A stretch of 46,909 bases of DNA from NCBI GenBank assembly GCA_044360385.1, contig JBIKKK010000002.1, forward strand, positions 1-46,909, written 5' to 3'. Every line of letters starts with the position of its first letter. Within the stretch, counting starts at the first letter, position 1. The position numbers were made by a program, and so were the translations under genes. This document shows, in pieces, positions 13,502-32,192 of this stretch. The notes beneath the pieces were generated by a model. The model was given only the letters and a program-made list of their open reading frames with translations, ran no database searches and was not told the origin of the DNA. This DNA is from Candidatus Nanopelagicales bacterium (lineage in GTDB: Bacteria > Actinomycetota > Actinomycetes > S36-B12).

Positions 13502-13757
13502 CGAGACGCTCGATGATCGCGCGGTAGCGCGCGATATCCGTGCGCTGCAGGTACTGGAGGAGGCGGCGGCGCTGGCCCACCAGGATGAGCAGACCACGGC
13601 GCGAGTGGTGGTCGTGCTTGTGGCTCTTCAGATGCTCGGTGAGGTCGCTGATGCGACGCGTGAGCATGGCCACCTGGACCTCGGGGCTGCCGGTGTCCTC
13701 AGGGGATGAGCCGTACTCGGAGATGATCTGCTTCTTGGTGGCGCTATCCAGCGACAT
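13488..13757 (-). CDS. rpsO: 30S ribosomal protein S15
   Basis: 89 aa, [16 protein letters not shown]...[35 protein letters not shown]...; classic S15. Confidence 0.97.
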
Positions 13758-14776: not shown

Positions 14777-14856
14777 GTGCGAAGCCTGCCACGCGACCCT
14801 CGCGTGCGAGGATGTGACCTCCGGGCGCCCGGGCGCCCCGGTCAACGGGAGACCAT

Positions 14857-15939
14857 GTGGCGGATCGCCTGCTACTGCACATCGGCACGCAGAAGTCGGG
14901 TACGACGTACCTCCAGCGCGTGCTCGCGCGCCTGTCTGGCGAGCTGAAGCGCGATGGCGTGCTCTACCCCACGCGCCTTCAAGGCCGTCGGGAGGTCTAC
15001 AACCACGAGGCTGCCGCCTACGGCCTCCTCGGCACAGCATCGTTCCCCTGGGTGGCGCAAGCTCAAGCCGAAGAGCAGGCCGGTGCATGGGAGCGGCTGA
15101 GGCGCATGGTGCAGGACTGGGATGGCACGGCCATCGTGTCCGGCGAGGCCTTCTGCGTGATCGATCCTGCAGCAGCACAGCGACTCGTCGAGTCTCTGGG
15201 TATCCCGAACACACATGTGATCATTACCGCACGCGACCTCGGCCGTGTGCTGCCGAGTTCGTGGCAGCAGCACGTCCGCAACGGCCGCTCGAAAGGTTTC
15301 GAGAGTTTCCTTCAGCACCAGGCGGACCGCCGCGGCGAAGGCTCCGCGCGCGACCTCAAGCGCCGCTGGGACGAGGATCCCGAGCAGACCTTTTGGCGTG
15401 CGTACGCCTTAGGCGGACTCGTTGAGAGGTGGTCACCCCTTGCACGCACGGTCAGCGTGGTCACCGTGCCGCGGAGCGGCGCCGCTCCCGACGAGCTCTG
15501 GCACCGATTCCGTCGCGCCCTGGACCTGGGTCCCGTGCTCCCGGAGACTCCCCCGGCCATCGACGACCTCGAGGCCAACATCGGACTCACCGAGCCCGAA
15601 GTGCTCGTGCTCGCGGCACTCAATCGCCAGGTCGACTCCACCAAGGCCGAACGTCCCGACACGCGAGCGCTCCGAGCACGGATCGTGCGCGACGCCTTCG
15701 CTCCCCGGGCCGATCGAGGCAACCGGGTGCGGATCCCCGATGCCTGGGTTCCGCGCGTCTCCGCGTGGGCCGACGACGACGTCGCAGTCCTGCGCTCGAC
15801 CCCCGCCATCCTCGTCGGCCAAGAGTCTGATCTCGTCGTGGAGCCCCCCTCGGGTTCCGGTGGCGACGGGCCTCGTCCCGACGAGGTCGCGCGCGCCGCA
15901 GGGGCGGCGATCGCCTACCTCGCCGGGCTTGGCGCCTAG
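14857..15939 (+). CDS. Sulfotransferase-family protein (P-loop-like 5'-PSB motif), cytoplasmic
   Basis: N-terminus LLLHIGTQKSGTTYLQ resembles the PAPS 5'-phosphosulfate-binding loop. ITARDLGRVLPSS resembles the 3'-phosphate-binding RDxxxxxxS. GTG start is preceded by GGGAG (5-nt spacer). Confidence 0.6.
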   Translation: MADRLLLHIGTQKSGTTYLQRVLARLSGELKRDGVLYPTRLQGRREVYNHEAAAYGLLGTASFPWVAQAQAEEQAGAWERLRRMVQDWDGTAIVSGEAFCVIDPAAAQRLVESLGIPNTHVIITARDLGRVLPSSWQQHVRNGRSKGFESFLQHQADRRGEGSARDLKRRWDEDPEQTFWRAYALGGLVERWSPLARTVSVVTVPRSGAAPDELWHRFRRALDLGPVLPETPPAIDDLEANIGLTEPEVLVLAALNRQVDSTKAERPDTRALRARIVRDAFAPRADRGNRVRIPDAWVPRVSAWADDDVAVLRSTPAILVGQESDLVVEPPSGSGGDGPRPDEVARAAGAAIAYLAGLGA

Positions 15940-15948
15940 ACTGCCCAC

Positions 15949-16923
15949 GTGCTCGTCCTCGTCTGCGGTATGCACCGCTCCGGATCCACACTGGTCTGGC
16001 AGATCACCCGGCAGTTACTCGACGGGGCAGCCGGATTGCGCAACCCGCGCGGGGTCTCGACCGAGGAGTACCCGGCGGCGGCGGCCAATCCCGACGACCT
16101 CCTCATGGCCAAGGTCCACTTCCGGCCTGCACTCGATCGCGAGGACTTCCCCAACGATGGGGCCCGCTACCTCTACACCTATCGAGATCCCCGGGATGTC
16201 GTCGCATCGCTTTACCGCAAGGGACGGTTCAAGCCCGACGATCCTGAGCGGGGGGCCCGGCCGAGTCGGCACATCGTGCGCCGCGAGCTCCGCGGGGACG
16301 AGTTCTGGACTGCCAAGTCGGATGTCTGGGTCGGCAGGTACGAGGACTTCCGCGATGACGTGCCGGGACTGGTGCGAGCGCTCGCCGGCTATCTCGGCAT
16401 CGAGGTCGATGAGACTCGCATCACGGACATCGTGCGTCAGGTCGACCTCGCCGCCCAAGAAGAGCGCGCCAAGGCTGCACGGCAGCACGGGGTCGACGAC
16501 AACCTGCGTGTCACCTCCAACCACATCACCGACGGCCGTGAGGGAGCCTGGCGTGACACACTCACGTCCGAGGAACTCGTCGCCATCGAGGCTGAGAGCG
16601 CGCGGTGGCTCGTCGAGCACGGGTACGACGTCGAGACAGAGGTAGGGCGGCGCAAGACCGCCGACCTGCGAGGCGGGGCAGTGCCCTCCAAGGAAGCATC
16701 TCCAGCAACCACCTCTCCGCACCGGCGCAAGCAGAGGGGCAGGGCTGTTCCCCTCCTCGCCCTGGCCGCGCTTCTCGGCATCGTTGGGGTTGTGGCAAGC
16801 CTCACACTTCCGGTGCTCTCACCCATCCCCTGGCTAGGCGCCTTGGGCGCTGGCATCGGCGGCGGGTACCTCTGGGGCCACGAAGGCCGTGGAGTCCCGG
16901 CGCGCCGGCGGCGCCTACGCTGA
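15949..16923 (+). CDS. Sulfotransferase with C-terminal membrane anchor
   Basis: VCGMHRSGSTLVWQ (5'-PSB), YTYRDPRDVVASLY (3'-PB) and EGAWRDTLT (GxW motif near the C-terminus of the catalytic domain). Two hydrophobic helices follow (AVPLLALAALLGIVGVVASLTL, WLGALGAGIGGGYLW). Confidence 0.7.
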   Translation: MLVLVCGMHRSGSTLVWQITRQLLDGAAGLRNPRGVSTEEYPAAAANPDDLLMAKVHFRPALDREDFPNDGARYLYTYRDPRDVVASLYRKGRFKPDDPERGARPSRHIVRRELRGDEFWTAKSDVWVGRYEDFRDDVPGLVRALAGYLGIEVDETRITDIVRQVDLAAQEERAKAARQHGVDDNLRVTSNHITDGREGAWRDTLTSEELVAIEAESARWLVEHGYDVETEVGRRKTADLRGGAVPSKEASPATTSPHRRKQRGRAVPLLALAALLGIVGVVASLTLPVLSPIPWLGALGAGIGGGYLWGHEGRGVPARRRRLR

Positions 16924-16932
16924 CCCCGCACT

Positions 16933-16982
16933 TTTCATCACGACGGCGTGGTGCGCCCTTCATCACGACGGCGTGGTGCGCC
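16933..16982. repeat. 25-bp tandem duplication spanning the stop codon of the GT4 gene
   Basis: TTCATCACGACGGCGTGGTGCGCC occurs at 16934-16957 and 16959-16982 (24/24 identical, 25-nt period). The second copy encodes the last codons ...WRTTPS plus TGA of the minus-strand gene. Confidence 0.9.
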
Positions 16983-18063
16983 ACAACTCCCGCGCCCAAG
17001 ACTCCAGGACGGCCACGAAGGCCGGGCCATCAGAAGCCCAATTGGCCTGCGTACGCACCCATGCGCGGCCTGCATCGGCCATCGCCTGGCGACGAACGTC
17101 ATCGGCGTTGAGGCCAAGAATCGCATCCACGGTCGCACTCACCTGACCGAAGGGCACAATCAGGCCCGCACCACTCGACTCGGCTAGGTCGACAGCGAGT
17201 GGCAGCGGCGTCGAGACAAAGGGCACGCCTCGAGCAAGGTACTCGAGCAGCTTCGTGGGCATCGAGTGGCGGTAGTTGGCCTCGTCATGGAGCAGCGACA
17301 GTCCTACGGTGGCGCCCTCGACTCGCCTCAGCGCTTCGGCATTGGGCAGGAATCCGCGCCAGTCGATCCAGCCGCGGCCATGTGCCAGGCCCAGCGCTTC
17401 GCTCACCTCGGGATCGGCATTGCCGATCACCTCGAGCACCACCCCGCGGACGTGGAGCTCACGGCCGACGTCGACGAGTGCGAGACCCCCACGTGCCCGG
17501 GTCAGGCGCCCGACGTAGACGGCGCGTCCCCGAAGTGAACTCGGCACATGCGCCGGCACCACCGGGGTGTTGGGCACGACGGGATGGGGCCTATCGAAAC
17601 GCTTCGCGTAGGAATGCTCAGCGAGCACGATGCGATGCGAGAGCTCCGCACGCGCCTCCGCCCGACGCACCGCGCCGGCCACCGGCGCGACAAGCGGCTG
17701 CGGCATCCAGGGGCGCATGGTGAGGGCCGCCGCCGTGTCCTCGTGGACATCCCACACGATCACCGGATGATCGACACCCCTCGCGGCGAGCAGGGCATCG
17801 GGACTGTGCAGGAGCACTACGTCGTGATGCGGAGCCTCTGACTTCAGGACGCGATGCGTCGCACGAACGGCGGCCAGGCGCTTCCGCCCGACGCTGCGGG
17901 GGATGTCGATCGCGCGCACCCCCTCCCGAGCGTCGGCTCCGTAGGCTGAGAAGGGTGCTGCCTGCGTGACCTGATGCCCCGCCTCGAGAAGGGCGCCGAT
18001 TTCGCGCTCGGCGATGCGTGCGTCACGGGGATCGTGCACCGGGCACACCACCAGTACGCGCAC
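16963..18063 (-). CDS. GT-B fold glycosyltransferase (GT4-like)
   Basis: The C-terminal half has the GT4 nucleotide-sugar domain (VYVGRLTRARG, SMPTKLLEYLARGVPFVST). GTG 18063 lies 1 nt after the ATPase stop and is preceded by GGAGAAGG. ATG 18111 would overlap the upstream gene by 47 nt. Confidence 0.75.
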   Translation of the reverse strand: MRVLVVCPVHDPRDARIAEREIGALLEAGHQVTQAAPFSAYGADAREGVRAIDIPRSVGRKRLAAVRATHRVLKSEAPHHDVVLLHSPDALLAARGVDHPVIVWDVHEDTAAALTMRPWMPQPLVAPVAGAVRRAEARAELSHRIVLAEHSYAKRFDRPHPVVPNTPVVPAHVPSSLRGRAVYVGRLTRARGGLALVDVGRELHVRGVVLEVIGNADPEVSEALGLAHGRGWIDWRGFLPNAEALRRVEGATVGLSLLHDEANYRHSMPTKLLEYLARGVPFVSTPLPLAVDLAESSGAGLIVPFGQVSATVDAILGLNADDVRRQAMADAGRAWVRTQANWASDGPAFVAVLESWARELWRTTPS

Positions 18064-18064
18064 G

Positions 18065-18991
18065 TCAGGCCTTCTCCTCGTCTGCTGCCAACTCCGAGAG
18101 AGCCTGCTCATTGGATTCCTTGCGCTTTCGGCGGCGTTCGCGCAGCGCCTTCTTGCTCTTCAAGCCGAAGCGGGCCTCGTACTCCGGGATGATGTCGTCG
18201 GGATGGCCGTCGGCGACGATCCTGCCCTCATCGAGCCAGAGCACGCGATTGCAGGCCGACCGGACGGCCCCCATCGAGTGGCTGACAAGGAAAATCGTGT
18301 CGGCCTCATCGCGCAGCTGCTGGATCCGCTGACTACTTCGCTTGACGAACTCACCGTCTCCCGTAGAGAGGGCCTCGTCGATGAGAAGGATCTCGTGGGT
18401 GACAGCGGAGGCGATGGCGAACTTGAGGCGCGCAGACATGCCCGAGGAGTATGTGTTCATGGGCATGTGGATGGCTGAGCCGATGCCACTGAACTCGATG
18501 ACCGACGGGATTCGTTCGCGAACTTCGACCGGAGTCAGTCCTAGCGCCAAGAGACCTAGCTCCACATTGCGCAGCCCGGACAGTGCCTGCATCAGCGCGG
18601 AACTCACTCCGAGCATCGTGGGCTGACCGTCGGCGTAGACCGCGCCCTGATTGGGGGGCAGGAGACCCGCGATGGCGCGCATGAGAGTCGACTTGCCGGC
18701 GCCGTTCTTGCCGATCACTCCGACGGCCTCGCCTTGCCGAGCAACGAAGCTCACACCCCGTAGGGCATGGACTTCGCGCTTGGAAGAGACAGGCCGCCGA
18801 GTGCGCATACGCCGCCATCGACTCGCATGTGGATCGAGCGGTGCATCCGGGGCCGTCCACACGCGATAGACGATGTGGAGGTCATCGATGACGACCTTGA
18901 TCGGCGCGTCCGGATCGTTGGCCTTGGGCGGCTCGACATCGGAAAAGTCGGCATCCTCGCTGAGATCGAATTCGTCGTCATCCTCGGCCAT
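18065..18991 (-). CDS. Polysaccharide/teichoic-acid-type ABC exporter ATP-binding protein (Wzt/TagH-like)
   Basis: Walker A GKNGAGKST, signature YSSGMSARL, Walker B ILLIDEAL. ATG 18991 is preceded by GGAGG (6-nt spacer) and overlaps the permease 3' end by 14 nt. Confidence 0.9.
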   Translation of the reverse strand: MAEDDDEFDLSEDADFSDVEPPKANDPDAPIKVVIDDLHIVYRVWTAPDAPLDPHASRWRRMRTRRPVSSKREVHALRGVSFVARQGEAVGVIGKNGAGKSTLMRAIAGLLPPNQGAVYADGQPTMLGVSSALMQALSGLRNVELGLLALGLTPVEVRERIPSVIEFSGIGSAIHMPMNTYSSGMSARLKFAIASAVTHEILLIDEALSTGDGEFVKRSSQRIQQLRDEADTIFLVSHSMGAVRSACNRVLWLDEGRIVADGHPDDIIPEYEARFGLKSKKALRERRRKRKESNEQALSELAADEEKA

Positions 18992-19865
18992 AGCGGTCCT
19001 CCGCACGCCAGAAGAACCACATGCCGAAGGGCAGAATCACCAGCGCCCACCCGGCCGCGAGGGCCCAGTTCCAGGCCCCCCACGGAGAGAAGTAGGAATC
19101 CATGAGCGCATCGCGCATGACGTTGAGGTAGACCGTGCCGGGGTTGATCTCGATGAGGAAGGTCGCCCACGCCGGCACCCCCAGCCGCTCGAGCCGGTCA
19201 GCGATCGGGATCATGACGCCCGACATGTATCCCCAGATCCGCAGGAAGTAGGGAAGCACCTCCGACACGTCCTGCACGGTGGCCACGACGCGGGCCATGA
19301 TGAGCGCCATCCCGAGGGAGAACATCAGGATGAGCAGCAACGCGACGGGAGCCAGCAGCCACTGCCACGTGATCGCCTCACCCGTGACCAGCAGAATGAC
19401 GATCATGATCGGCAGCGCATAGAGGAAGACACGCAACTGCTTGATGACCGTGGCGATGGGCAGCACGGCGCGAGGGAAGTGAATGGAGCGCACCAGCCCC
19501 TCATTGCCGGAGATGCTGCGCGATCCCACCGTGATCGACTGACGGATGATGGCGAAGGTGAAGACGCCCGCCGCGAGGAATCCGGTGTAGTTCTCGACAC
19601 TTCCTCGGCCGCCGAGCAGGAAGCCGAAGAGGAACCAGTAGATGGCCATGGTGAGGACCGGGTCCATCACCTGCCAGAACTGACCCAGGCGGCTCTTGGT
19701 GTTCTGCTTATCGACACTGGCCTTGGCGAAGGCGAAGATAAACGCCCTGCGCTGCCAGAGGCTGCGGAGATAGGCCCCAAAGGGGGGACGGCTATTGACC
19801 GGCGCGAGGCCGGATTCGCGGGCGAGGTCCGCGGCGTCGACCTCGCGACCGTCGACGAGGATCAG
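18978..19865 (-). CDS. ABC-2 type polysaccharide exporter permease (Wzm/TagG-like), probable non-canonical CTG start
   Basis: The ORF track starts at 19670 (MMDPVLTMAIYWFLFG...). The frame stays open upstream and encodes the family-typical N-terminus ...FGAYLRSLWQRRAFIFAFAKASVDKQNTKSRLGQFWQ, with no in-frame ATG/GTG/TTG back to the stop at 19944-19946. CTG 19865 overlaps the upstream stop (CTGA) and follows AAGGTGGTG. Confidence 0.7.
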   Translation of the reverse strand: MILVDGREVDAADLARESGLAPVNSRPPFGAYLRSLWQRRAFIFAFAKASVDKQNTKSRLGQFWQVMDPVLTMAIYWFLFGFLLGGRGSVENYTGFLAAGVFTFAIIRQSITVGSRSISGNEGLVRSIHFPRAVLPIATVIKQLRVFLYALPIMIVILLVTGEAITWQWLLAPVALLLILMFSLGMALIMARVVATVQDVSEVLPYFLRIWGYMSGVMIPIADRLERLGVPAWATFLIEINPGTVYLNVMRDALMDSYFSPWGAWNWALAAGWALVILPFGMWFFWRAEDRYGRG

Positions 19866-21121: not shown

Positions 21122-21191
21122 GTCCGTCCTTCGCCTTCCCCGCGGGGCTTGCGTGCCTCGAGCCCGCGAAGCCGTCCTGGCCGCAGGGCGG

Positions 21192-22832
21192 TCAGCCCCG
21201 GAGGGCGCCGAGGAAAGAGTACGCCGCCCGATAGGCCTCCATGACAGAAGGCCACGTGCGCGTGGCCTCCACCCAGGCACGGGCACGCTCACCCGCCTCC
21301 CCGCGCGTGGCGGGATCGGCAAGGGACCTGAGGGCCTCGGCGAGGGCGGCAGCATCGCCGGGCGCCACGAGCGGGGAGCCGGGGGCGAGGACCTCGGCGA
21401 CGGCGGGGAGGTCGCTCCCCACGACCGGGACGCCGCGCGCCTGTGCCTCGAGGGGCTTCAGCGCCGTCACGGCGCGATTGACGGCCGTGTCACGCCTCGG
21501 CAGGGCGAAGACATCGAGGACGTCGTACCACTGCCGCACCTCGGCGACAGGGACGCGCCCCGGGGCGAGCAGGGGTACGCCGCTGCGCTCGGCACGTCGG
21601 CGCAGGTCTGCGAGGCCGGGACCATCGCCCACGATGAGCACGCGGACATCCCGGCCCTCACCCCGAAGGAGCGCGACGGAGTCGATGAGCGTGTCGAGAC
21701 CTTCGTCGTCGTTGATGGTCGCGACACTGCCCACCCACAGTGCGTCGCCGATGCCCAAGGCGGTGCGCGCACCTGCCTGATCGCGAGGCTCGAGGAAGTT
21801 CATGGGCACCGCGTTGGGCGCGATGAAGACACGCTCGGGATCCACGCCGCGCGCGACGATGGCATCGCGCATGCCGGTGCCGAGGGTGGTCACCACATCT
21901 GCCGCGAGGAGCGCTTCGGTGTGCCGATCGCGCAGTAGCGCATAGGTGTCGCTGTCGGGAGCTTCCTCGCCGCCGTGGCGCGCCAGCCAGGTGTCCTCGA
22001 AGAACGTGCGCGCCTCGTAGGCGACGGGTATCCCGTGCGCTCGGCCCACGTCAAGGGCCACTGCCGCGTTGACATGATCCGACGCGGCATGCAGGACATC
22101 AGGGCGAAGATCCTCGACAAGCCGGCCCAGTTGGGCGGCATAGGCCGTGCGCAGACGTTCATCCGCAGGCATCACCAAGGGCAGCAGCCGGTGGTAGGAC
22201 ACTCCGTCGACCATCTGAGGATTCGGCGAGCGCAGATCGCCGTGCGTGACGGGATAGCCGAGTCGCGTGACGACGCGCGCATCCCACCCGAGGTCGCGCT
22301 GCGCACGTGCGACGCGCTGCGTGCGAATAGTGGAACCCGCCTGGGTGAGCGGGAGTGAGTTGGTCACCACGTGGAGCACGCCGATTCCGTCGCGGCCTGT
22401 TCGGCCCGGCGGACCGGCCAAGCCGGCCCTGTCGGGCTCGCCCGGCGCACGGGCAGGTGCTGCGGGGATGGGCTGCGCCAACACAGCGAGCTGCCGCCGC
22501 GCCGCACGCACCGCCCGACGACTGCGCGCATCGTGCGGATGGGACCGGGCCGCTTGGCTGAGTCGGCCCGCAAGCACATCAACGGCAAGTTCGCATGAGG
22601 CTCGCTCCGCGCTGCTGACGGGGACCATGGCCAGGGCATCGCATGCATCGGCGTAGCGATCACGCGCGATCGCGCGATCGACGAGCGCGGCGGGGGTTTC
22701 GGGCGCCGTGCCACCGAGCCCGGGGACTGCACGCTCCAGCGCGGCACGACCACGCGCCGGATCCTGCCCGAAGCGGCGCAACGCTCCGGATGCGGCAAGG
22801 GGAACGCGCCGCACGAAGCTGAGTCCCCTCAT
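21192..22832 (-). CDS. GT-B (GT4-like) glycosyltransferase with ~150-aa N-terminal Arg/Ala-rich extension
   Basis: From about residue 155 onward: GVLHVVTNSLPLTQAGSTIRT... The C-terminal domain is LWVGSVATINDDEGLDTLI...ALKPLEAQARGVPVVGSDLPAVAEV (EX7E-like). The N-terminal 150 aa have no motif I recognise. Confidence 0.75.
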   Translation of the reverse strand: MRGLSFVRRVPLAASGALRRFGQDPARGRAALERAVPGLGGTAPETPAALVDRAIARDRYADACDALAMVPVSSAERASCELAVDVLAGRLSQAARSHPHDARSRRAVRAARRQLAVLAQPIPAAPARAPGEPDRAGLAGPPGRTGRDGIGVLHVVTNSLPLTQAGSTIRTQRVARAQRDLGWDARVVTRLGYPVTHGDLRSPNPQMVDGVSYHRLLPLVMPADERLRTAYAAQLGRLVEDLRPDVLHAASDHVNAAVALDVGRAHGIPVAYEARTFFEDTWLARHGGEEAPDSDTYALLRDRHTEALLAADVVTTLGTGMRDAIVARGVDPERVFIAPNAVPMNFLEPRDQAGARTALGIGDALWVGSVATINDDEGLDTLIDSVALLRGEGRDVRVLIVGDGPGLADLRRRAERSGVPLLAPGRVPVAEVRQWYDVLDVFALPRRDTAVNRAVTALKPLEAQARGVPVVGSDLPAVAEVLAPGSPLVAPGDAAALAEALRSLADPATRGEAGERARAWVEATRTWPSVMEAYRAAYSFLGALRG

Positions 22833-22932
22833 TCAGTCCTCACGGTCTGGGATACTAGACGGCGGTGACCACAGCGTCACTGCACGCGATCCCCGGGAGA
22901 CGGCTCGCGGCGCCATGGACAGGAAGGCCGCG
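22833..22932. promoter_or_regulatory. Divergent promoter region of the two glycan operons (predicted)
   Basis: 100-bp gap. Its only AT-rich element, GATACTA (22851-22857), reads TGG-GATACT on the plus strand and TAGTAT on the minus strand. GAGGA lies 4 nt before ATG 22832 and AGGAAGG lies 5 nt before ATG 22933. Confidence 0.3.
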
Positions 22933-24018
22933 ATGACCCTGCTGCACGTCACCGGTGCGCGCCCCAACTTCCCCAAGGCGGCTCCCGTCATCGCCGCGCT
23001 CGCCTCTCTGGGAGTCCGCCAGCGCCTCGTGCACACCGGGCAGCATTACGACGATCGCATGTCGGAGGTGTTCTTCCGCGAGCTCGACCTCCCCCGCCCG
23101 GACATCAACCTCGGTGTCGGCTCCGGGGGCCATGCCCAGCAGACAGCCGCCATCCTCGTCGGCCTCGAAGAGGAGATGATCGCCACCAAGCCGGAGCTCG
23201 TCATCGTCTACGGCGATGTCAATTCCACCCTGGCGGCGGCCATCGCCGCAAGCAAGCTCGGCATCCCCGTGGCGCACGTCGAGGCCGGTCTGCGGTCCTT
23301 CGACATGTCCATGCCCGAGGAGATCAACCGGATTGTCACCGACCGCCTCTCCGATCTCCTGCTGTGCACCAGCCCTGACGCCATTGCTCACCTCGCCCAT
23401 GAGGGTGTCCCCGCCGACCGCATTCACCTCGTCGGCAATCCGATGATCGACACCCTGCTCGCCAATGTGGATCGGTTCGATGCCGCGCGAATGCGCGACC
23501 TCCTGTGCTTGCCCGAGGACTACCTGGTGGCGACACTCCACCGACCGGGCAATGTCGATGACCCCGAGTCGGCCGGGGAGCTCGTCGCACTCCTGCACTC
23601 CGCGGCTTCGCGAGCCGACATCGTGCTCCCGCTCCACCCTCGCGGGCGCGCCGTCCTCGAGGCGCTGGGGCTCGACGACCACCCACGCATGCACGTGGTT
23701 GAACCGCTCGGTTACCTCGACTTCATGGGCTTGGTCCGTGGCTCGCGTGCGGTCATCACCGACTCGGGTGGCGTGCAGGAGGAGACCACAGTCCTGGGTA
23801 TCCCCTGCCTGACCCTGCGCCCCAACACCGAGCGCCCGGTGACCATCACGCACGGATCGAATCGCCTCGCCACCGCGTCGACCCTGCTGCCGCTCCTCGA
23901 CGCTGCTCTCGCCGGCACCTTCGACACCACGCGCCGACCCCCTCTGTGGGATGGGCACGCGGGCACTCGGATCGCCGAGGTCATCGTCGACTGGCTCGGG
24001 GATCGCGAGCCCCGATGA
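22933..24018 (+). CDS. wecB: UDP-N-acetylglucosamine 2-epimerase (non-hydrolysing)
   Basis: HVTGARPNFPKAAPV, HTGQHYD, VYGDVNSTLAAA, AHVEAGLRSFDMSMPEEINR, DSGGVQEE: the canonical Epimerase_2 motif set. ATG 22933 has the better SD; ATG 22915 is an alternative. Confidence 0.9.
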   Translation: MTLLHVTGARPNFPKAAPVIAALASLGVRQRLVHTGQHYDDRMSEVFFRELDLPRPDINLGVGSGGHAQQTAAILVGLEEEMIATKPELVIVYGDVNSTLAAAIAASKLGIPVAHVEAGLRSFDMSMPEEINRIVTDRLSDLLLCTSPDAIAHLAHEGVPADRIHLVGNPMIDTLLANVDRFDAARMRDLLCLPEDYLVATLHRPGNVDDPESAGELVALLHSAASRADIVLPLHPRGRAVLEALGLDDHPRMHVVEPLGYLDFMGLVRGSRAVITDSGGVQEETTVLGIPCLTLRPNTERPVTITHGSNRLATASTLLPLLDAALAGTFDTTRRPPLWDGHAGTRIAEVIVDWLGDREPR

Positions 24019-25550
24019 CCGAAGAGATGGCACCAGACGGCCCGTCCGAGGGTGACGTCGAGCGCATGACAGGCGGTGCGCGCCTGATGTCGGAGTTGCG
24101 CCAGGCGCAGGCGCGCGCGGACCGCGCCGAACGCGAACTCGAGCGCACCCGCCGCAGCGCGTCGTATGTCGTGGGTGAACTTTTCGTGAGTGCGGCAAAG
24201 GATCCGCGTCGGCTCCTCACGCTGCCTCGCGACCTCTGGCGCACCTGGCGGTTGCGTCGAGCGCGTCGCCACGCACCGCGACCCACGGCACCCGCGCGCA
24301 CTCGAGAGGTCCTGGACCTCGACGCTACGCGACTGCTCGTCCCGCGCATCGCCGCTGTTCCTCCGGGCCGAGGGCTGTCCATCGCCGGGGCGATCGCCAC
24401 TGCCACGGCTCGGGGCTGGGCGCCCTACGCGGCCGTGAGCCCCGCGCTCCCCCACGAGGCAGCGGCACTCGTGGAGGCCATCGACCCCGATCTCGTCATC
24501 GTCGACTCCTCTGCAGCGTTGCCCGGGCAAGCCTGGTCTCACCTGGGCGATCCGGCGGCCGTCGACCGCCTCCTCGCCGCCGGCGCACTCGTCGACGCTG
24601 CGCACGCCCTGGGGCGCCCTGCCGTGCTTCTGCGCATGACACCACCCGGTCACACCGCTTTCCTCGATGGACTTGCGCGGCGCTGCGACCTCGTGGTGGA
24701 CGGTCCCGGCGCGTCACGCCGGTCGCCGTGGCATCCAGGGATCGATCCCCTCGCACCTGCCCCACTGCCCGATGACGCAGCCCTCCTGGTCACGGCGGCG
24801 CCGAGCGACGATGTGGAAACCATCTCCCAGGCTGCAGCGCGCAGCCTGCGGATCGAGTCCGCCCTCCCGGCTGACGTGGCCTGGACGCGCGCCCTCGACG
24901 CGTCGACGGGCCTCCTGGCTGACGTCGTCGCCTCCGGCATCCTCGGCGCTGGACTCGACAGCGTGTCGGCGCTCGCCGCCGGACGGCGCGTGCTGGGACC
25001 GGGCGACAACGACCTCGCGCGCATGCTCTCGCCGTGGCCCGCGGCCCGCTCCGCGCTCGTCAGCTCCGGGGACCTCACGCCCCTCGTTGATGCGGCTCGC
25101 CGAGGACCAACCCCACTCACTCCCGATGAGCACCGCGCTGTCTTTGCCGCCGTCCTCCTGGCCGCCTCGGCTCCGGTCCAACTCACGGTCCTGGCCGACA
25201 GACTCGGCATCGCGTCCCGACCGCGGGCCTGCTGGGATGTCGCGCTCGTCGCCGACGCCGACGTGGATCCCGACCGGGTGATCGCGCAGGCCTGGCGCCC
25301 GCGCGAGCTCGTCGTGTCCACTCCCCTTCCCGGCCGCGCACGCGACGCCCTGGCTGACGCGGGCATCACCGTCGTGACCGTCGCACCCGATCACGCCCTA
25401 GAGCCCGCGCTCCTCAGTCTCGCCTCGCCCTTCCTCGCCTTCCAGGTCGATCTGGGCAATCCGCACGATCTGCTGGACCTCCTCGCCGGCCACCTCCTCG
25501 GGCAGCCGGCGCGCTCCCATCCCACCGATGCACGCCTGGTGAGCGCATGA
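24015..25550 (+). CDS. Hypothetical 511-aa protein with N-terminal coiled coil (orphan component of the glycan locus)
   Basis: ATG 24015 overlaps the wecB stop (ATGA), and its own stop overlaps the next start (ATGA). N-terminus is LMSELRQAQARADRAERELERTRRSASYVVGELFVSAAKDPRRLLTLPRDLWRTWR. The rest is Ala/Leu/Asp-rich with Rossmann-like alternation (DPDLVIVDSS). I recognise no catalytic motif. Confidence 0.6.
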   Translation: MTEEMAPDGPSEGDVERMTGGARLMSELRQAQARADRAERELERTRRSASYVVGELFVSAAKDPRRLLTLPRDLWRTWRLRRARRHAPRPTAPARTREVLDLDATRLLVPRIAAVPPGRGLSIAGAIATATARGWAPYAAVSPALPHEAAALVEAIDPDLVIVDSSAALPGQAWSHLGDPAAVDRLLAAGALVDAAHALGRPAVLLRMTPPGHTAFLDGLARRCDLVVDGPGASRRSPWHPGIDPLAPAPLPDDAALLVTAAPSDDVETISQAAARSLRIESALPADVAWTRALDASTGLLADVVASGILGAGLDSVSALAAGRRVLGPGDNDLARMLSPWPAARSALVSSGDLTPLVDAARRGPTPLTPDEHRAVFAAVLLAASAPVQLTVLADRLGIASRPRACWDVALVADADVDPDRVIAQAWRPRELVVSTPLPGRARDALADAGITVVTVAPDHALEPALLSLASPFLAFQVDLGNPHDLLDLLAGHLLGQPARSHPTDARLVSA

Positions 25551-27775
25551 CCGCCCGGCGACTGAGCGCGATCGTCTACGGCGACGTCAACCTCAACATC
25601 CTCGACGGGTCGGCCATCTGGGTTCAGTCGATGAGCGAGGCACTGTCGCGTGCGGGGGTCGACGTGCGCGTCCTCCTCAAGGCTCCCGTGGAGACAGGGC
25701 GCCTCGTCGATCCCCTGCGCGCGCTGCCCTCGGTCACCGTCGTGGATCCCTTCGAGTCCGGGATGACCTCGGGGCGCACGTCGCTCTCAGCTCCCGAAGC
25801 CGTCTCGCTCATCGAGCGCCTCGACGGCGAAGCCCATGCCGACCTTGTCGTGGTGCGCGGTCTGCGGCTGGTGAGCGCGGCTGCGGCATCCCCTCGACTG
25901 CACGGCCGCCTCTGGGCCTATCTCACCGACATCCCGCAGAGTCCACTCGACATGGACGACGAGCAGCGCGATCGGCTCGCCACCATCGCGGCCGCCAGCC
26001 GCTGGATGCTGTGCCAGACCGAGGAGTTGCGCTCCCTGATCGAGGCGAGCATCCCCGGCACGGGCGGCCGGTGCGTGCTGTGGAGCCCGATCGTGCCCGC
26101 GCCCGAGATCGACGTGCCCGAGCGAGATGACGCCGGCGCACCCCTGCGACTCATCTATACGGGCAAGTTCGCACCCCTGTGGAACACGCTCGAGATGACA
26201 CGACTTCCCGCCTTGCTTGCGGAGCAGGGCATCTCTGCCGAGGTCCACATGGTGGGCGACAAGATCCACGAAGTCCCCGACGACCCTGACTGGTCCTCGC
26301 GGATGCGAGCGGCGCTCGAGTCGACTCCGGGCGTCATCTGGCACGGGGGCATGCCGCGCCAGGAGGCCATGGCCATCGCGGCCTCGGGTGACCTCGGCCT
26401 CTCGTGGCGCGCGCCAGAGATGGATGCGAGCTTGGAACTCAGCACCAAGGTGCTCGAGTTCGGCGTACTCGGGGTGCCCGTCCTCCTCAATCGCACGCCG
26501 ATGCACGCGGCGATCCTCGGCGATGACTACCCGCTCTTCGTCGCCGACGAATCCGACATCGCCGCGGCCTGCGCCGCCGTCACCCGCGAACCCGGGCTCC
26601 TGGCGCAACTGGGGCAGCGCATCACGGGCTCCGTGGCTCCCTTCCGCATGGAGGCGGCTACTCAGCGCCTGCGCGCCGTGCTCGAGCGCACCTTCCCTCC
26701 GGCGCCCGCGGCCCTCGAGGCGGCCACTCAGGCCGCAGGGCGCCCGCTGCGTGTCGTCGTGGCGAGCCATGACCTGAAGTTCTTCACGCGCATCCAGGAG
26801 CACCTCGCGGGGCTGCCGGGCGTTGAGCTCCGCCTTGATCACTGGGAGGCGCTCTCGGTGCACGACGTGTCCACCAGTGAGTCCATGGCCGCGTGGGCCG
26901 ATGTCGTCATCTGCGAGTGGGCAGGCCCCAACCTCGTCTGGTACTCACGACACAAGCGCGCGAGTCAGCGCCTCATCGTGCGCCTGCACCGATTCGAGCT
27001 TGAGGCCGGCTGGCTTGCTGACGTGCGCGCCGAGGCCATCGATCAGGTCGTCTGCGTGAGTCCCTTCTATGCGCAACTCACGGCAGAGAAGACCGGATGG
27101 CCGGCAGATCGCATTGTGGTGATTCCCAACTGGGTCGATGTCGAGCAGTTCGACCGGCCCAAGTTGGCGGGCGCAGAGTTCACGCTCGGCATGATCGGCA
27201 TCTCACCACACCGCAAGCGTCCCGATCTCGGCGTGGAGATCCTGGCGCGCTTGCGCCGACGCGATCGACGCTTCCGGCTGGCGATCAAGTCCAAGATGCC
27301 GTGGGACTACTGGTGGATCTGGCGCAAGCCGGAGGAGCGCGCCGAGGCCGAGCGCCTCTTCCACCGCCTGCACGACGATCCCGTGGTCGCCGGGGCGGTG
27401 ACCTTCGACGGCTTCGGCGGAGACGTGGCCTCGTGGCTTCGCCGCGTCGGCTGGGTCCTGTCGACCTCGGATGACGAGAGCTTCCACCTGGCGCCCGCGG
27501 AAGGGATGGCCTCGGGTGGCGTGCCCGCGCTCCTGCCCTGGCCGGGCGCGGACACCATCTACGACACCAGGTGGATCCACGCTGATCCCGCGGCAGCCGC
27601 CGACGCCATCTACGACGTCGTCGCGTCAGGTCAGTGGGATGCCACCCGCGCCATCGCGAGAGATCAGGTCAGCGCGTCCTTCTCGTTGGAGGCGGTGTGC
27701 GACACCTGGGCGAGCATCCTCGTGGAGGATCTCTCCCCGGACACCGCGCACGGCACTCTCGCGCGCGACGCCTAG
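25547..27775 (+). CDS. Two-module GT-B glycosyltransferase (candidate bifunctional polymerase)
   Basis: 742 aa. Module 1 ends with LELSTKVLEFGVLGVPVLL. Module 2 has DDESFHLAPAEGMASGGVPALL (EX7E). Each module has its own N-terminal Rossmann-like half (AIVYGDVNLNILDGSAIW...; LRVVVASHDLKFF...). Confidence 0.7.
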   Translation: MTARRLSAIVYGDVNLNILDGSAIWVQSMSEALSRAGVDVRVLLKAPVETGRLVDPLRALPSVTVVDPFESGMTSGRTSLSAPEAVSLIERLDGEAHADLVVVRGLRLVSAAAASPRLHGRLWAYLTDIPQSPLDMDDEQRDRLATIAAASRWMLCQTEELRSLIEASIPGTGGRCVLWSPIVPAPEIDVPERDDAGAPLRLIYTGKFAPLWNTLEMTRLPALLAEQGISAEVHMVGDKIHEVPDDPDWSSRMRAALESTPGVIWHGGMPRQEAMAIAASGDLGLSWRAPEMDASLELSTKVLEFGVLGVPVLLNRTPMHAAILGDDYPLFVADESDIAAACAAVTREPGLLAQLGQRITGSVAPFRMEAATQRLRAVLERTFPPAPAALEAATQAAGRPLRVVVASHDLKFFTRIQEHLAGLPGVELRLDHWEALSVHDVSTSESMAAWADVVICEWAGPNLVWYSRHKRASQRLIVRLHRFELEAGWLADVRAEAIDQVVCVSPFYAQLTAEKTGWPADRIVVIPNWVDVEQFDRPKLAGAEFTLGMIGISPHRKRPDLGVEILARLRRRDRRFRLAIKSKMPWDYWWIWRKPEERAEAERLFHRLHDDPVVAGAVTFDGFGGDVASWLRRVGWVLSTSDDESFHLAPAEGMASGGVPALLPWPGADTIYDTRWIHADPAAAADAIYDVVASGQWDATRAIARDQVSASFSLEAVCDTWASILVEDLSPDTAHGTLARDA

Positions 27776-29429: not shown

Positions 29430-32192
<2,763 letters not shown>

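What the first reader, a model, noticed from the sequence alone, without database searches (positions are those of the whole stretch)
14857..27775. ~13 kb ABC-transporter-dependent glycopolymer locus with sulfotransferases between ribF and truB
truB and ribF, both on the minus strand here, are part of the conserved infB-rbfA-truB-ribF-rpsO-pnp neighbourhood and lie next to or close to each other in many actinobacteria. Here ten genes in three transcription units separate them. Unit 1 (+) has two sulfotransferase-like proteins. Unit 2 (-) has a GT4 with an N-terminal extension, an NDP-HexNAc 6-dehydrogenase, a Wzm-like permease, a Wzt-like ATPase and a GT4. Unit 3 (+) has a UDP-GlcNAc 2-epimerase, a 511-aa orphan and a two-module GT. 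The epimerase plus dehydrogenase predicts a UDP-ManNAcA-type acidic sugar, as in teichuronic acids. The two-module GT predicts a disaccharide-repeat polymer built in the cytoplasm and exported by the ABC-2 system. The sulfotransferases predict O-sulfation. Sulfated wall or capsular polymers are rare in bacteria, and I know of no characterised locus with this composition. No priming transferase (WecA/TagO type), LCP ligase, PAPS-synthesis gene, integrase or flanking tRNA lies in the window. The locus therefore looks like an old, domesticated insertion that depends on genes elsewhere.
Basis: partly seen in the sequence, partly recalled or inferred. Interest (0 to 1): 0.7.

Follow-up and report, generated by a model that had tools for sequence, protein, structure and literature searches.

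The report
Conserved sulfotransferase-bearing wall-glycopolymer locus, freshwater actinobacteria
An uncultured but abundant group of freshwater actinobacteria carries, wedged between two translation-related genes, a fixed 13-kb gene set predicted to build an acidic, probably sulfated surface sugar polymer and pump it out; the genes are real, but the chemistry is unproven and the general design is already known from other bacteria.

Summary
Ten genes at 14857-27775 sit between ribF and truB:
- two sulfotransferase-like genes;
- a TarGH/Wzm-Wzt-type ABC exporter;
- a WecB-type UDP-GlcNAc 2-epimerase and a Cap5O/WecC-like dehydrogenase;
- four glycosyltransferase proteins carrying five GT-B modules.

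The "511-aa orphan" is a divergent GT-B-fold protein. Its family is restricted, and some members are fused to GT4 or GT2 modules.

The "accessory island" reading fails. All 15 clade loci I recovered carry the block or the part of it that the contig reaches, at this site wherever a flank is present. They span 60-71% GC, with orphan identity down to 48% and ST1 down to 50%. By contrast, 33 of 41 outgroup loci have truB and ribF adjacent, and the largest gap is 2.8 kb. So this is an old insertion, now fixed. Exporter and precursor genes are conserved about as well as housekeeping genes.

Best reading: a core envelope polymer built in the cytoplasm, containing ManNAcA, sulfated before export.

Caveats:
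- ST1 is only a probable sulfotransferase: motifs fit, Pfam is below threshold, and the fold search cannot separate it from P-loop kinases.
- No PAPS-synthesis, priming or LCP gene is in the window.
- ABC-dependent sulfated capsules are already described in Cobetia and Vibrio.

New variant of a known kind; moderate interest.

The parts
13871..14845 (-). ribF (bifunctional riboflavin kinase/FAD synthetase), the left boundary gene. The start is uncertain: TTG at 14845 or GTG near 14779.
   Evidence: NCBIfam NF004160 at 317 bits, above the cutoff of 295. N-terminus inspected.
14857..15939 (+). ST1, a probable PAPS-dependent sulfotransferase of a divergent family (360 aa). It diverges from ribF across 80 nt or less.
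   Evidence: Invariant HIGxxK[ST][GA]TT and TxRxLxRxxPSSWQQH motifs in 25 family members. Sulfotransfer_3 is below threshold in 7 of 25 members, and no kinase family is hit. The AF2 model has pLDDT 91, but the fold search is not discriminating. A homologue in Haloactinopolyspora alba sits in another glycan cluster.
15949..16923 (+). ST2, a Sulfotransfer_1-family sulfotransferase with a conserved C-terminal hydrophobic membrane tail (324 aa from GTG 15949).
   Evidence: Pfam PF00685 at 49.5 bits, above the cutoff of 22. PDB hits to SULTs, retinol dehydratase, StaL and Teg12, with the catalytic His and the GxxGxWR motif aligned. The hydrophobic tail spans residues 256-292 of the 317-aa call and is conserved in 5 orthologues. 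Start site.
16963..18063 (-). GT4a, a single-module GT-B/GT4 glycosyltransferase (366 aa).
   Evidence: Glyco_trans_1_4 at 39 bits, Glyco_trans_1_2 at 36 bits, Glycos_transf_1 at 27 bits.
18065..18991 (-). TagH/TarH/Wzt-like ABC exporter ATPase (308 aa). It has an N-terminal extension of about 75 aa and no C-terminal carbohydrate-binding module.
   Evidence: PDB hits: TarH 194 bits, TagH 175, A. aeolicus Wzt 147, M. tuberculosis RfbE 135. NCBIfam TagH models are the best match but below their cutoffs.
18978..19865 (-). ABC-2 (Wzm/TagG-type) permease, about 295 aa if it starts at CTG 19865 or ATC 19862. Gene callers give a truncated 229-aa form from 19667.
   Evidence: The frame is open and conserved up to the dehydrogenase stop in 9 loci, with no ATG/GTG/TTG in the window's lineage. 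The L017 orthologue has an ATG there and is 294 aa. The extended form scores 45.1 versus 38.0 bits against ABC2_membrane.
19862..21121 (-). NDP-HexNAc 6-dehydrogenase, most like UDP-ManNAc dehydrogenase (419 aa).
   Evidence: TIGR03026 at 423 bits, above its cutoff. WecC 239 bits and archaeal UDP-ManNAc DH 227 bits are the best equivalogs but below cutoff. PDB best hits: Cap5O 219 bits, Pyrococcus UDP-ManNAcA DH 189 bits.
21192..22832 (-). GT4b, a GT4 glycosyltransferase with a 150-aa Ala/Arg-rich N-terminal extension (546 aa).
   Evidence: Glyco_trans_4_4 and Glyco_trans_1_4 at residues 166-505. TIGR04063-like at 250 bits, below cutoff.
22915..24018 (+). Non-hydrolysing UDP-GlcNAc 2-epimerase (WecB/MnaA type, 367 aa).
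   Evidence: TIGR00236 at 284 bits, above the cutoff of 210; Epimerase_2 at 329 bits.
24015..25550 (+). The former 'orphan': a divergent GT-B-fold protein with a long N-terminal helix (511 aa). Whether it is catalytic is unknown.
   Evidence: No Pfam, NCBIfam or PDB sequence hit. Only 84 unnamed clusters from uncultured bacteria. AF2 pLDDT 84 and pTM 0.75. Foldseek top hits are GT4 enzymes SenB, PglA and PimA at probability ~1.0 and TM 0.26-0.41. The exhaustive HMM search finds 292 representatives, some fused to GT4+TPR or GT2 modules.
25547..27775 (+). Two-module GT-B/GT4 glycosyltransferase, the candidate polymerase (742 aa). Its stop overlaps the truB stop, with the two genes convergent.
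   Evidence: C-terminal module: Glyco_transf_4 and Glyco_trans_1_4 at residues 403-692. N-terminal module: 9 of 10 orthologous N-halves hit Glyco_trans_1_2, best E 6.6e-9. It is 65-98% identical across more than 120 clusters.
27772..28677 (-). truB, the right boundary gene.
   Evidence: TIGR00431 at 213 bits, above the cutoff of 151.

Best explanation
The locus encodes the assembly line for a conserved envelope glycopolymer of one clade of uncultured, high-GC freshwater Actinomycetota. NCBI labels several of the MAGs Candidatus Nanopelagicales.

Proposed steps:
1. The WecB-type epimerase converts UDP-GlcNAc to UDP-ManNAc.
2. The Cap5O/WecC-like dehydrogenase oxidises it to UDP-ManNAcA.
3. GT4a, GT4b and the GT-B 'orphan' build an adaptor or add side residues on a polyprenyl-phosphate-linked primer. 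The primer is made by a WecA/TagO-type enzyme encoded elsewhere.
4. The two-module 742-aa GT extends an alternating, probably disaccharide, repeat at the cytoplasmic face of the membrane.
5. ST2 (tail-anchored in the membrane) and ST1 (plus a third paralogue in many relatives) O-sulfate the nascent chain from PAPS. This must happen before export, because PAPS exists only in the cytoplasm.
6. The TarGH-like ABC-2 transporter exports the finished chain.
7. The chain is then probably ligated to peptidoglycan by an LCP enzyme encoded elsewhere.

The result would be a phosphorus-free, doubly anionic (carboxylate plus sulfate) teichuronic-acid-like wall polymer.

Shown: the gene identities, the order and fixation of the locus, and its strong conservation. 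Inferred: sugar identity, sulfation, acceptor, polymer topology and wall linkage.

My separate estimates:
- ABC-exported glycopolymer: about 0.9.
- ManNAcA content: about 0.7.
- Sulfation of the polymer: about 0.6.
- Peptidoglycan-linked core wall polymer: about 0.45.
For: - Gene content.
- No Wzx/Wzy-like multi-TM protein in the locus; only the permease and the ST2 tail are hydrophobic.
- ST2 passes Pfam Sulfotransfer_1. It aligns with the SULT catalytic His, the 3'-PB motif and GxxGxWR. Its C-terminal hydrophobic tail is conserved in 5 orthologues.
- The ST1 family has invariant PAPS-loop-type motifs. Its only Pfam hits are to Sulfotransfer_3.
- Sulfotransferase genes are part of the block in every locus that reaches that end: L001, L012-L014, L017, L019, L020.
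- The locus is fixed at truB|ribF in 15 clade loci, whereas 33 of 41 outgroup loci have the two genes adjacent.
- Conservation is at housekeeping level. In L012: Wzt 90%, DH 85%, Epi 85% and Wzm 85%, against TruB 55% and RbfA 85%. That is unlike hypervariable capsule or O-antigen loci.
- The two-module GT4 plus single-module GT4s plus ABC exporter mirrors known ABC-dependent polymerase systems (my own knowledge of E. coli O9a WbdA/B/C).
- M. luteus teichuronic acid is an actinobacterial ManNAcA-Glc disaccharide-repeat wall polymer (PMC3005890).
Against: - No PAPS-synthesis gene (cysDN/cysC), cysQ or sulfate permease is in the window. Described sulfated-capsule loci carry them in the cluster (PMC11766843, PMC11641403).
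- Cultured Nanopelagicaceae lack complete assimilatory sulfate reduction (PMC12817590). That paper covers the low-GC family, not this lineage.
- ST1 is below the Pfam threshold. It has no PDB sequence relative. Its model matches P-loop kinases at least as well as a sulfotransferase. Its profile aligns with ST2's only over the P-loop.
- The dehydrogenase is below every equivalog cutoff.
- No priming GT, LCP ligase or TagA is in the window, so lipid carrier and wall linkage are pure inference.
- There is no chemistry at all: the organisms are uncultured.
Confidence: 0.55

Rival explanations
1. The polymer exists, but the sulfotransferases act as chain terminators. They would cap the non-reducing end with sulfate to set chain length and license export, by analogy with the phosphate-methyl cap that WbdD adds in E. 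coli O9a. They would not decorate every repeat.
For: The overall architecture (bimodular GT4 polymerase, single GT4s, ABC exporter, separate modifying enzymes) resembles O9a-type systems (the comparison is from my own knowledge). The orphan and GT4b have long helical N-terminal regions that could act as spacers. Long family members give a faint tropomyosin-like hit.
Against: The ATPase has no C-terminal carbohydrate-binding module to read a cap. It is TagH-like, and those systems do not need a cap. Two to three different sulfotransferases per locus suggest several sulfation sites rather than one cap. No sulfate cap is known from any system (my own knowledge).
Confidence: 0.12
2. The product is not a peptidoglycan-linked wall polymer. 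It would be a lipid-anchored glycolipid or lipoglycan, or a released capsule or exopolysaccharide, exported by the same ABC transporter.
For: No LCP ligase, TagO or TagA is in the window. GT4 enzymes such as PimA, which build glycolipids, are among the orphan's structural matches. Known sulfated bacterial glycans are mostly capsules or exopolysaccharides (PMC11766843, PMC8205485).
Against: The ATPase is closest to wall-teichoic-acid exporters. Fixation and housekeeping-level conservation across a deep clade fit a core wall component better than a capsule. This rival changes only the last step of the mechanism.
Confidence: 0.3
3. ST1, and its paralogue in relatives, is a P-loop kinase-like enzyme, so the polymer would be phosphorylated rather than, or in addition to, sulfated. 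Alternatively, the ST genes act on a small molecule or lipid unrelated to the glycan and are merely neighbours.
For: Foldseek ranks PSTK, zeta/PezT toxins (which are UDP-GlcNAc kinases, from my own knowledge), polynucleotide kinase and thymidylate kinase above any sulfotransferase. ST1 is below the Pfam gathering score. The ST unit is a separate, divergently placed transcription unit.
Against: All fold hits are weak (E > 3e-3, TM 0.46 or less). Sulfotransferases share this core fold. ST1 has K-[ST]-[GA]-T-T, not the Walker A motif GxxxxGK[ST], and the second Gly is Ala in the paralogues. The only Pfam family hit by family members is Sulfotransfer_3. The ST genes co-occur with the GT/ABC genes in every locus that reaches them, and an ST1 homologue sits in a different glycan cluster in H. 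alba. ST2 is an unambiguous sulfotransferase regardless.
Confidence: 0.1

Closest known systems
Wall teichoic acid export and assembly (TarGH/TagGH pathway) of Firmicutes
   Same: A cytoplasmic, lipid-linked polymer is exported by a two-component ABC-2 transporter. The ATPase here is most similar to TarH/TagH (194 and 175 bits). The product would be an anionic wall polymer.
   Different: There are no TagB/TagF/TagD polyol-phosphate genes and no TagO/TagA in the locus. The predicted polymer is a phosphate-free glycan built by GT4 enzymes, with sulfotransferases attached.
Micrococcus luteus teichuronic acid, [-4-beta-D-ManNAcA-(1-6)-alpha-D-Glc-1-]n (PMC3005890)
   Same: An actinobacterial wall polymer with a ManNAcA-containing disaccharide repeat made by a membrane-associated synthetase. 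The epimerase-dehydrogenase pair and the bimodular GT here predict the same kind of backbone.
   Different: No sulfation is known in M. luteus TUA. I made no gene-level comparison, and the second sugar here is unknown.
ABC-transporter-dependent sulfated capsules of Cobetia marina KMM 1449 and Vibrio sp. KMM 8419 (PMC11766843, PMC11641403)
   Same: GTs, sulfotransferases and an ABC exporter in one cluster, with sulfation before export. For those organisms the sulfated polymer has been confirmed by NMR.
   Different: Those are Gram-negative KpsMT(ED) group 2/3 capsule systems with a Kdo-lipid primer. They carry cysDNC/cysQ in the cluster, are about 70-80 genes long, vary between strains and show HGT signatures. 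Here the exporter is TarGH-like, the locus has 10 genes and no PAPS genes, and it is fixed across a deep clade.
E. coli O9a-type ABC-dependent O-antigen synthesis (WbdA/B/C/D, Wzm/Wzt); comparison from my own knowledge
   Same: A multi-module GT4 polymerase plus single-module GT4 adaptor enzymes, a separate non-glycosyl modifying enzyme, and a Wzm/Wzt exporter.
   Different: The Wzt here has no CBM, there is no WbdD-like kinase/methyltransferase, and the organism is Gram-positive with no lipid A-core acceptor.
Actinoplanes missouriensis wps-1 cluster (PMC13390465) and Synechocystis synechan xss cluster (PMC8205485)
   Same: Polysaccharide clusters with two or more sulfotransferases. wps-1 is the only other predicted sulfated polysaccharide in an actinomycete that I found.
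   Different: Both use Wzx/Wzy-type assembly, not an ABC exporter. Sulfation by wps-1 is also unverified. Synechan is an exopolysaccharide of a cyanobacterium.

Membership tests
ABC-transporter-dependent glycopolymer pathway (Wzm/Wzt, TarGH type) | ABC-2 family integral-membrane permease | tested here: met
   PF01061 at 38 bits (229-aa call) or 45 bits (295-aa form), above the cutoff of 26.9.
ABC-transporter-dependent glycopolymer pathway (Wzm/Wzt, TarGH type) | Cognate nucleotide-binding subunit related to TagH/Wzt | tested here: met
   The best PDB relatives are TarH, TagH, Wzt and RfbE. The NCBIfam TagH and galactan-Wzt equivalogs are the best hits but below cutoff.
ABC-transporter-dependent glycopolymer pathway (Wzm/Wzt, TarGH type) | No Wzx flippase or Wzy polymerase; polymerisation by cytoplasmic GTs | tested here: met
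   Only the permease and the ST2 tail have hydrophobic segments. There are five GT-B modules.
ABC-transporter-dependent glycopolymer pathway (Wzm/Wzt, TarGH type) | Polyprenyl-phosphate priming transferase (WecA/TagO) | not testable with these tools
   None is in the 46.9-kb window. The rest of the genome is not available.
ABC-transporter-dependent glycopolymer pathway (Wzm/Wzt, TarGH type) | C-terminal carbohydrate-binding module on Wzt (cap-reading subtype only) | tested here: not met
   The ATPase ends about 30 aa after the NBD, and its extra residues are N-terminal. It therefore belongs to the TagH/O2a-like subtype without a CBM.
PAPS-dependent sulfotransferases | 5'-phosphosulfate-binding loop (K/R-x-G-[ST]-T type) after the first beta-strand | tested here: met
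   ST1 has HIGTQKSGTTYL, invariant in its family. ST2 has VCGMHRSGSTLV.
PAPS-dependent sulfotransferases | 3'-phosphate-binding motif (R-D/N-x...S) | tested here: met
   ST1 has TARDLGRVLPSSWQQH with R126 and S134 invariant. ST2 has YRDPRDVVAS, aligned to the SULT motif.
PAPS-dependent sulfotransferases | Curated family model passed | tested here: inconclusive
   ST2 passes Sulfotransfer_1 (49.5 bits, cutoff 22). ST1 fails Sulfotransfer_3 (21.4 bits, cutoff 27), and only 7 of 25 relatives reach E <= 0.01.
PAPS-dependent sulfotransferases | Sulfotransferase fold distinguished from P-loop kinases (ST1) | tested here: inconclusive
   For the pLDDT-91 model, the Foldseek top hits are P-loop kinases (E 3.7e-3 and weaker), with TPST2 at rank 35. 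The ST1-ST2 profile alignment covers only the P-loop.
PAPS-dependent sulfotransferases | PAPS supply (ATP sulfurylase and APS kinase) in the genome | not testable with these tools
   Absent from the window. No whole genome of the clade could be read.
UDP-ManNAcA pathway (WecB+WecC, or Cap5P+Cap5O) | Non-hydrolysing UDP-GlcNAc 2-epimerase | tested here: met
   TIGR00236 equivalog at 284 bits, above the cutoff of 210.
UDP-ManNAcA pathway (WecB+WecC, or Cap5P+Cap5O) | UDP-ManNAc 6-dehydrogenase | tested here: inconclusive
   The best equivalogs are WecC (239 bits, cutoff 459) and the archaeal UDP-ManNAc DH (227 bits, cutoff 750), with TviB at 193 bits. The best PDB relative is Cap5O. This is the right subfamily, but the specificity is not proven.
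Genomic island or accessory locus | Variable presence among close relatives | tested here: not met
   The block, or the part of it each contig reaches, is present in all 15 clade loci, in the same order in all but L019 (slightly rearranged).
Genomic island or accessory locus | Integrase, flanking tRNA or deviating composition | tested here: not met
   No tRNA and no integrase. GC is 0.64-0.73 inside the locus against 0.64-0.75 outside it.
GT4 (GT-B) glycosyltransferases, for the 511-aa protein | Two-Rossmann-domain GT-B fold | tested here: met
   The Foldseek top 10 are almost all GT4 enzymes at probability ~1.0, though TM is only 0.26-0.41. Relatives are fused to GT4 or GT2 modules.
GT4 (GT-B) glycosyltransferases, for the 511-aa protein | Sequence-model membership and catalytic motif (EX7E) | tested here: not met
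   There is no Pfam or NCBIfam hit and no PDB sequence hit even with a profile. Most invariant residues lie in the N-terminal Rossmann domain. I did not search for the EX7E motif specifically.

The most novel reading that the evidence does not exclude
This abundant freshwater actinobacterial clade may have replaced phosphate-based wall teichoic acid with a constitutive, phosphorus-free, sulfated teichuronic-type polymer as its main anionic wall polymer. That would be a fixed adaptation to phosphorus-poor lakes, encoded by a locus that inserted once between truB and ribF. The number of sulfotransferases (two or three) would tune the sulfation pattern between species. If so, it would be the first sulfated secondary cell-wall polymer of a Gram-positive bacterium. 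It would also link envelope chemistry to P and S economy in freshwater plankton.
Probability: 0.2. Interest if true: 0.75.

Novelty: new variant of a known kind. Interest (0 to 1): 0.42.

Why it matters
If the prediction is right, a widespread uncultured freshwater actinobacterial lineage coats itself with a sulfated uronic-acid polymer. The actinomycete literature still treats sulfated bacterial polysaccharides as confined to cyanobacteria (PMC13390465). Within the literature I could search, they are otherwise documented only in marine Gammaproteobacteria and Kiritimatiellae.

Possible consequences:
- The polymer would affect phage adsorption, grazing resistance, metal and cation binding, and the phosphorus budget of abundant lake bacteria.
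- ST1 would define a new family of glycan sulfotransferases, and the orphan a new GT-B family. Both are of biotechnological interest for making sulfated polysaccharides.

The finding also gives a clean example of a glycan locus becoming fixed inside a conserved block of translation-related genes.

All of this is genomic prediction only. Without PAPS genes, a primer transferase or any chemistry, it is a well-supported hypothesis and not a discovery.

Tried and rejected
- Sequence searches of ST1, the ST1 family profile, the orphan family profile, the 742-aa GT and its N-terminal-half profile against PDB sequences found nothing meaningful.
- The profile-profile comparison of the ST1 and ST2 families aligned only the P-loop, at probability 1%. 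I could not show the two are homologous beyond that motif.
- The fold search of the ST1 model did not separate sulfotransferase from P-loop kinase. I rejected the kinase reading on motif grounds only.
- The promoter and terminator consensus scan was uninformative for this high-GC organism.
- Rfam found no regulatory RNA inside the locus.
- Literature searches for sulfotransferases in Nanopelagicales, and for sulfated wall polymers in Gram-positives, returned nothing specific.
- I considered horizontal-transfer signatures (tRNA, integrase, GC deviation) and rejected them.
- I considered an S-layer or protein-glycosylation role and set it aside, because no oligosaccharyltransferase or O-antigen-ligase-like multi-TM protein is in the locus.
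- I could not test PAPS synthesis, TagO/WecA, LCP or WTA genes.

Full report

The window is about 69% GC. I called genes by third-position GC content and by Pfam and NCBIfam scans. An independent metagenome gene call of the same contig gives the same ten genes (JGI sample 3300042348).

- Left: pnp 10983-13244, rpsO 13488-13757, and ribF from 13871 to about 14845. All are on the minus strand.
- Right: truB 27772-28677, rbfA, a DUF503 gene, infB and nusA. All are on the minus strand.

The ten genes between them:
- ST1, 14857-15939 (+)
- ST2, 15949-16923 (+)
- GT4a, 16963-18063 (-)
- ABC ATPase, 18065-18991 (-)
- ABC-2 permease, 18978-19865 (-)
- NDP-sugar dehydrogenase, 19862-21121 (-)
- GT4b, 21192-22832 (-)
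- WecB epimerase, 22915-24018 (+)
- a 511-aa protein, 24015-25550 (+)
- a 742-aa GT, 25547-27775 (+)

Genes within each same-strand run abut or overlap by 4-14 nt. The three transcription units are inferred from orientation and spacing, because the consensus promoter and terminator scan was uninformative.

The rest of the window is housekeeping: RNase J, dapA, thyX, glpD, azlC, an M16 peptidase, rimP, a TauE-family gene, a HAD hydrolase, proS, ispG, rseP, dxr and others. It holds no tRNA and no integrase, WecA/TagO, LCP or cysDNC gene.

**2. What the individual proteins are**

*Epimerase and dehydrogenase.* The epimerase passes the wecB equivalog model (284 bits, cutoff 210). The dehydrogenase passes the general NDP-sugar dehydrogenase model. 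Its best specific matches are UDP-ManNAc dehydrogenases:
- WecC, 239 bits, and the archaeal enzyme, 227 bits, both below their cutoffs;
- among solved structures, S. aureus Cap5O at 219 bits and the Pyrococcus UDP-ManNAcA dehydrogenase at 189 bits.

UDP-ManNAcA is therefore the most likely product, but the specificity is not proven.

*Exporter.* The ATPase is closest to the wall-teichoic-acid exporters TarH (194 bits) and TagH (175 bits). A. aeolicus Wzt (147 bits) and the mycobacterial galactan exporter RfbE (135 bits) come next. It has no C-terminal carbohydrate-binding module.

*ST2.* This is a clear Sulfotransfer_1 member (49.5 bits, cutoff 22).
- It aligns with cytosolic sulfotransferases, retinol dehydratase and the glycopeptide sulfotransferases StaL and Teg12. 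The alignment includes the catalytic His, the RDPRD...S motif and the GxxGxWR motif.
- Its true start is GTG 15949. That start supplies the beta-strand before the PAPS loop, as in the orthologues of L017 and L019.
- It ends in a conserved hydrophobic segment. This would anchor it at the cytoplasmic face of the membrane.

*ST1.* This one is less certain.
- For: its family has invariant H-I-G-x-x-K-[ST]-[GA]-T-T and T-x-R-x-L-x-R-x-x-P-S-S-W-Q-Q-H motifs. From my own knowledge, these fit the 5'-phosphosulfate and 3'-phosphate binding motifs of sulfotransferases and do not fit a Walker A motif. The only Pfam family hit by the family is Sulfotransfer_3, in 7 of 25 members and all below threshold. 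UniRef names a Haloactinopolyspora homologue 'Sulfotransferase family protein'.
- Against: there is no PDB sequence relative even with a profile. The high-confidence model (pLDDT 91) matches P-loop kinases weakly (E 3.7e-3 and weaker). A sulfotransferase (TPST2) appears only at rank 35. The ST1 and ST2 profiles align only over the P-loop.

I treat ST1 as a probable sulfotransferase.

*The 511-aa 'orphan'.*
- It has no Pfam, NCBIfam or PDB sequence match.
- Its family has only 84 unnamed clusters from uncultured bacteria.
- Its AF2 model (pLDDT 84, pTM 0.75) shows a long N-terminal helix followed by two Rossmann-like domains.
- The best structural matches are GT4 enzymes (SenB, PglA, PimA, BshA, MshA) at probability about 1.0 but TM of only 0.26-0.41.
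- An exhaustive profile search widens the family to 292 representative clusters. Some are fused to a complete GT4 module with TPR repeats, or to a GT2/rhamnosyltransferase-like module.

It is a divergent GT-B-fold protein. Whether it is catalytically active is unknown.

*The 742-aa GT.* It is bimodular. The C-terminal half hits GT4 families directly. The N-terminal halves of 9 of 10 orthologues hit Glyco_trans_1_2 (best E 6.6e-9).

*Overall.* The locus holds five GT-B modules in four proteins and no Wzx/Wzy-like membrane protein.

**3. Distribution and synteny**

TruB-based retrieval from species-representative genomes gave eight uncultured Actinomycetota MAGs with TruB 72-96% identical. One of them is labelled Candidatus Nanopelagicales, and they come from lake and river samples. 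All eight have the 742-aa GT convergent with truB, followed by the same genes in the same order as far as each contig or flank reaches.

More distant relatives show the same picture:
- L012/L013 (orphan 48% identical) and L014 have the whole block next to truB.
- L017 (60% GC, ST1 61% identical by tblastn) has ribF diverging from ST1 and the block beyond it.
- L019 (ST1 50% identical) has a slightly rearranged version beside ribF.
- L020 again has ST1 diverging from ribF.

At about 39-44% identity, ST1-like genes occur in other contexts. One stands alone in a Lake Tanganyika contig. Another sits in a different glycan cluster in Haloactinopolyspora alba, with a GT2-GT4 fusion, a Sulfotransfer_2 protein and methyltransferases.

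A RibF-profile scan of metagenomes returned outgroups with RibF at most 55% identical. Of the 41 loci holding both genes on the same strand:
- 33 have truB and ribF essentially adjacent (under 300 nt);
- 4 are separated by 300-1000 nt;
- 4 are separated by 1.0-2.8 kb;
- none approaches 13 kb.

Two low-GC loci (41% and 51% GC) have the genes adjacent.

The block is therefore a single, clade-specific insertion into an ancestrally tight truB-ribF junction. It is now fixed.

Conservation is high. In L012, TruB is 55% and RbfA 85% identical to the window. The locus proteins there are:

| Protein | Identity to window |
|---|---|
| Wzt | 90% |
| DH | 85% |
| Epi | 85% |
| Wzm | 85% |
| ST2 | 78% |
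| ST1 | 73% |
| 742-aa GT | 70% |
| GT4a | 63% |
| GT4b | 58% |
| orphan | 48% |

This pattern fits a core envelope component and not a strain-variable capsule or O-antigen locus. The 742-aa GT family is also very abundant in freshwater metagenomes, with more than 120 clusters at 65% identity or above.

**4. Mechanism**

Best-supported reading:
1. The epimerase and dehydrogenase make UDP-ManNAcA.
2. Single-module GTs and the orphan build an adaptor or side branches on a lipid-linked primer made elsewhere.
3. The bimodular GT polymerises an alternating repeat.
4. ST2 (membrane-anchored), ST1 and, in many relatives, a third ST1 paralogue sulfate the chain in the cytoplasm.
5. The TarGH-like transporter exports the chain.
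6. Ligation to peptidoglycan is a plausible last step, but there is no evidence for it in the window.

Shown: gene identities, architecture, fixation and conservation. Inferred: sugars, sulfation, carrier and attachment.

The main weakness is PAPS supply. No cysDN/cysC is in the window, whereas described sulfated-capsule clusters carry them (PMC11766843, PMC11641403). Cultured low-GC Nanopelagicaceae lack complete assimilatory sulfate reduction (PMC12817590). PAPS formation needs only ATP sulfurylase and APS kinase, and that paper does not cover this high-GC lineage.

Rivals:
- sulfate as a terminal cap;
- a lipid-anchored or released product rather than a wall-linked one;
- ST1 as a kinase-like enzyme, or ST genes acting on a non-glycan substrate.

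**5. Comparison with what is known**

- The exporter and general logic match the TarGH and Wzm/Wzt pathways.
- The predicted backbone resembles M. luteus teichuronic acid, a ManNAcA-Glc disaccharide repeat (PMC3005890).
- GTs, sulfotransferases and an ABC exporter in one cluster are already documented, with chemistry, in Cobetia marina and Vibrio sp. (PMC11766843, PMC11641403). Those are KpsMT capsule systems, strain-variable, with PAPS genes in the cluster.
- In actinomycetes, the only comparable proposal I found is the Wzx/Wzy-type wps-1 cluster of Actinoplanes missouriensis. Its sulfation is also unverified, and its authors regard sulfated polysaccharides as essentially confined to cyanobacteria among bacteria (PMC13390465).
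- I found no description of a sulfated teichoic- or teichuronic-type wall polymer with dedicated sulfotransferases in a Gram-positive. That is absence from the library I could search, not proof of absence.

**6. Verdict**

The functional interpretation is plausible and partly supported. The 'accessory island' framing is wrong.

This is a new variant of a known kind: a compact locus with a TarGH-type exporter and sulfotransferases, fixed in a deep clade, in uncultured freshwater Actinomycetota. It contains two poorly characterised protein families, the ST1 family and the orphan GT-B family.

Interest is moderate. Such a locus is surprising in a Gram-positive lineage and ecologically suggestive, since the polymer would be anionic and phosphorus-free. 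But the case is entirely predictive, and it depends on genes that could not be examined here.

Noticed in passing
window 19670-19865 (- strand); also L004, L007, L014, L017: The ABC-2 permease is called as 229 aa, but its frame stays open and conserved through the 190-nt 'gap' up to the dehydrogenase stop codon. The window's lineage has no ATG/GTG/TTG there. It has only a conserved CTG overlapping the TGA stop (cTGA) and an adjacent ATC, with AAGGTGGTG 7 nt upstream. The L017 orthologue has an ATG at this spot and is 294 aa. This points to a non-canonical start codon with translational coupling.
   Followed up: partly
L012:1761-2840, L014:1880-2941, L017:12184-13269: Relatives carry a third gene in the sulfotransferase unit, an ST1 paralogue at 34-40% identity, between ST2 and GT4a. 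The window has only 39 nt there. The number of sulfotransferases (two or three) varies within the clade while the backbone genes are fixed.
   Followed up: partly
window 15949-15969: The metagenome gene call starts ST2 at MHRSGST (317 aa). The GTG at 15949 adds VLVLVCG, the beta-strand that precedes the PAPS-binding loop, and matches the L017 and L019 orthologues (MLLVVCGMHRSGST).
   Followed up: yes
window 13301-13360 (- strand): An Actino-pnp cis-regulatory RNA (Rfam RF01688, 63.7 bits) lies upstream of pnp. It is the only Rfam hit in the window, and it is consistent with an actinobacterial origin.
   Followed up: no
L015:6118-14246 (Haloactinopolyspora alba, GCA_004138525.1): A cultured actinomycete has an ST1-family gene (44% identical) in a different glycan-type cluster. 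That cluster has an 875-aa GT2-GT4 fusion, a Sulfotransfer_2 protein and three methyltransferases. It could serve as a tractable system for testing ST1-family activity.
   Followed up: no
window 35373-36146 (- strand): A TauE/SafE-family anion transporter ('sulfite exporter' family, 136 bits) lies about 7.5 kb beyond truB. It keeps this position in L001 and L012-L014. It may be unrelated housekeeping synteny, but it is the only sulfur-related gene in the window.
   Followed up: no
window 27772-27775: The stop codons of the 742-aa GT (+) and truB (-) overlap in a 4-nt convergent overlap, leaving no room for a terminator between the inserted block and truB. The ribF start and the ST1 start are also no more than about 80 nt apart.
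   Followed up: no
L018:10001-11179 (Lake Tanganyika contig): A 392-aa ST1-like protein (39% identical) stands alone beside glnA and glnE genes, with no glycan genes nearby. The ST1 family is therefore not restricted to glycan clusters.
   Followed up: no
window 29430-32192 (- strand): The infB ORF is 920 aa. The metagenome call for the same gene is 613 aa, and residues of roughly 50-300 align only patchily with relatives. This looks like a variable, low-complexity N-terminal region of IF-2.
   Followed up: no
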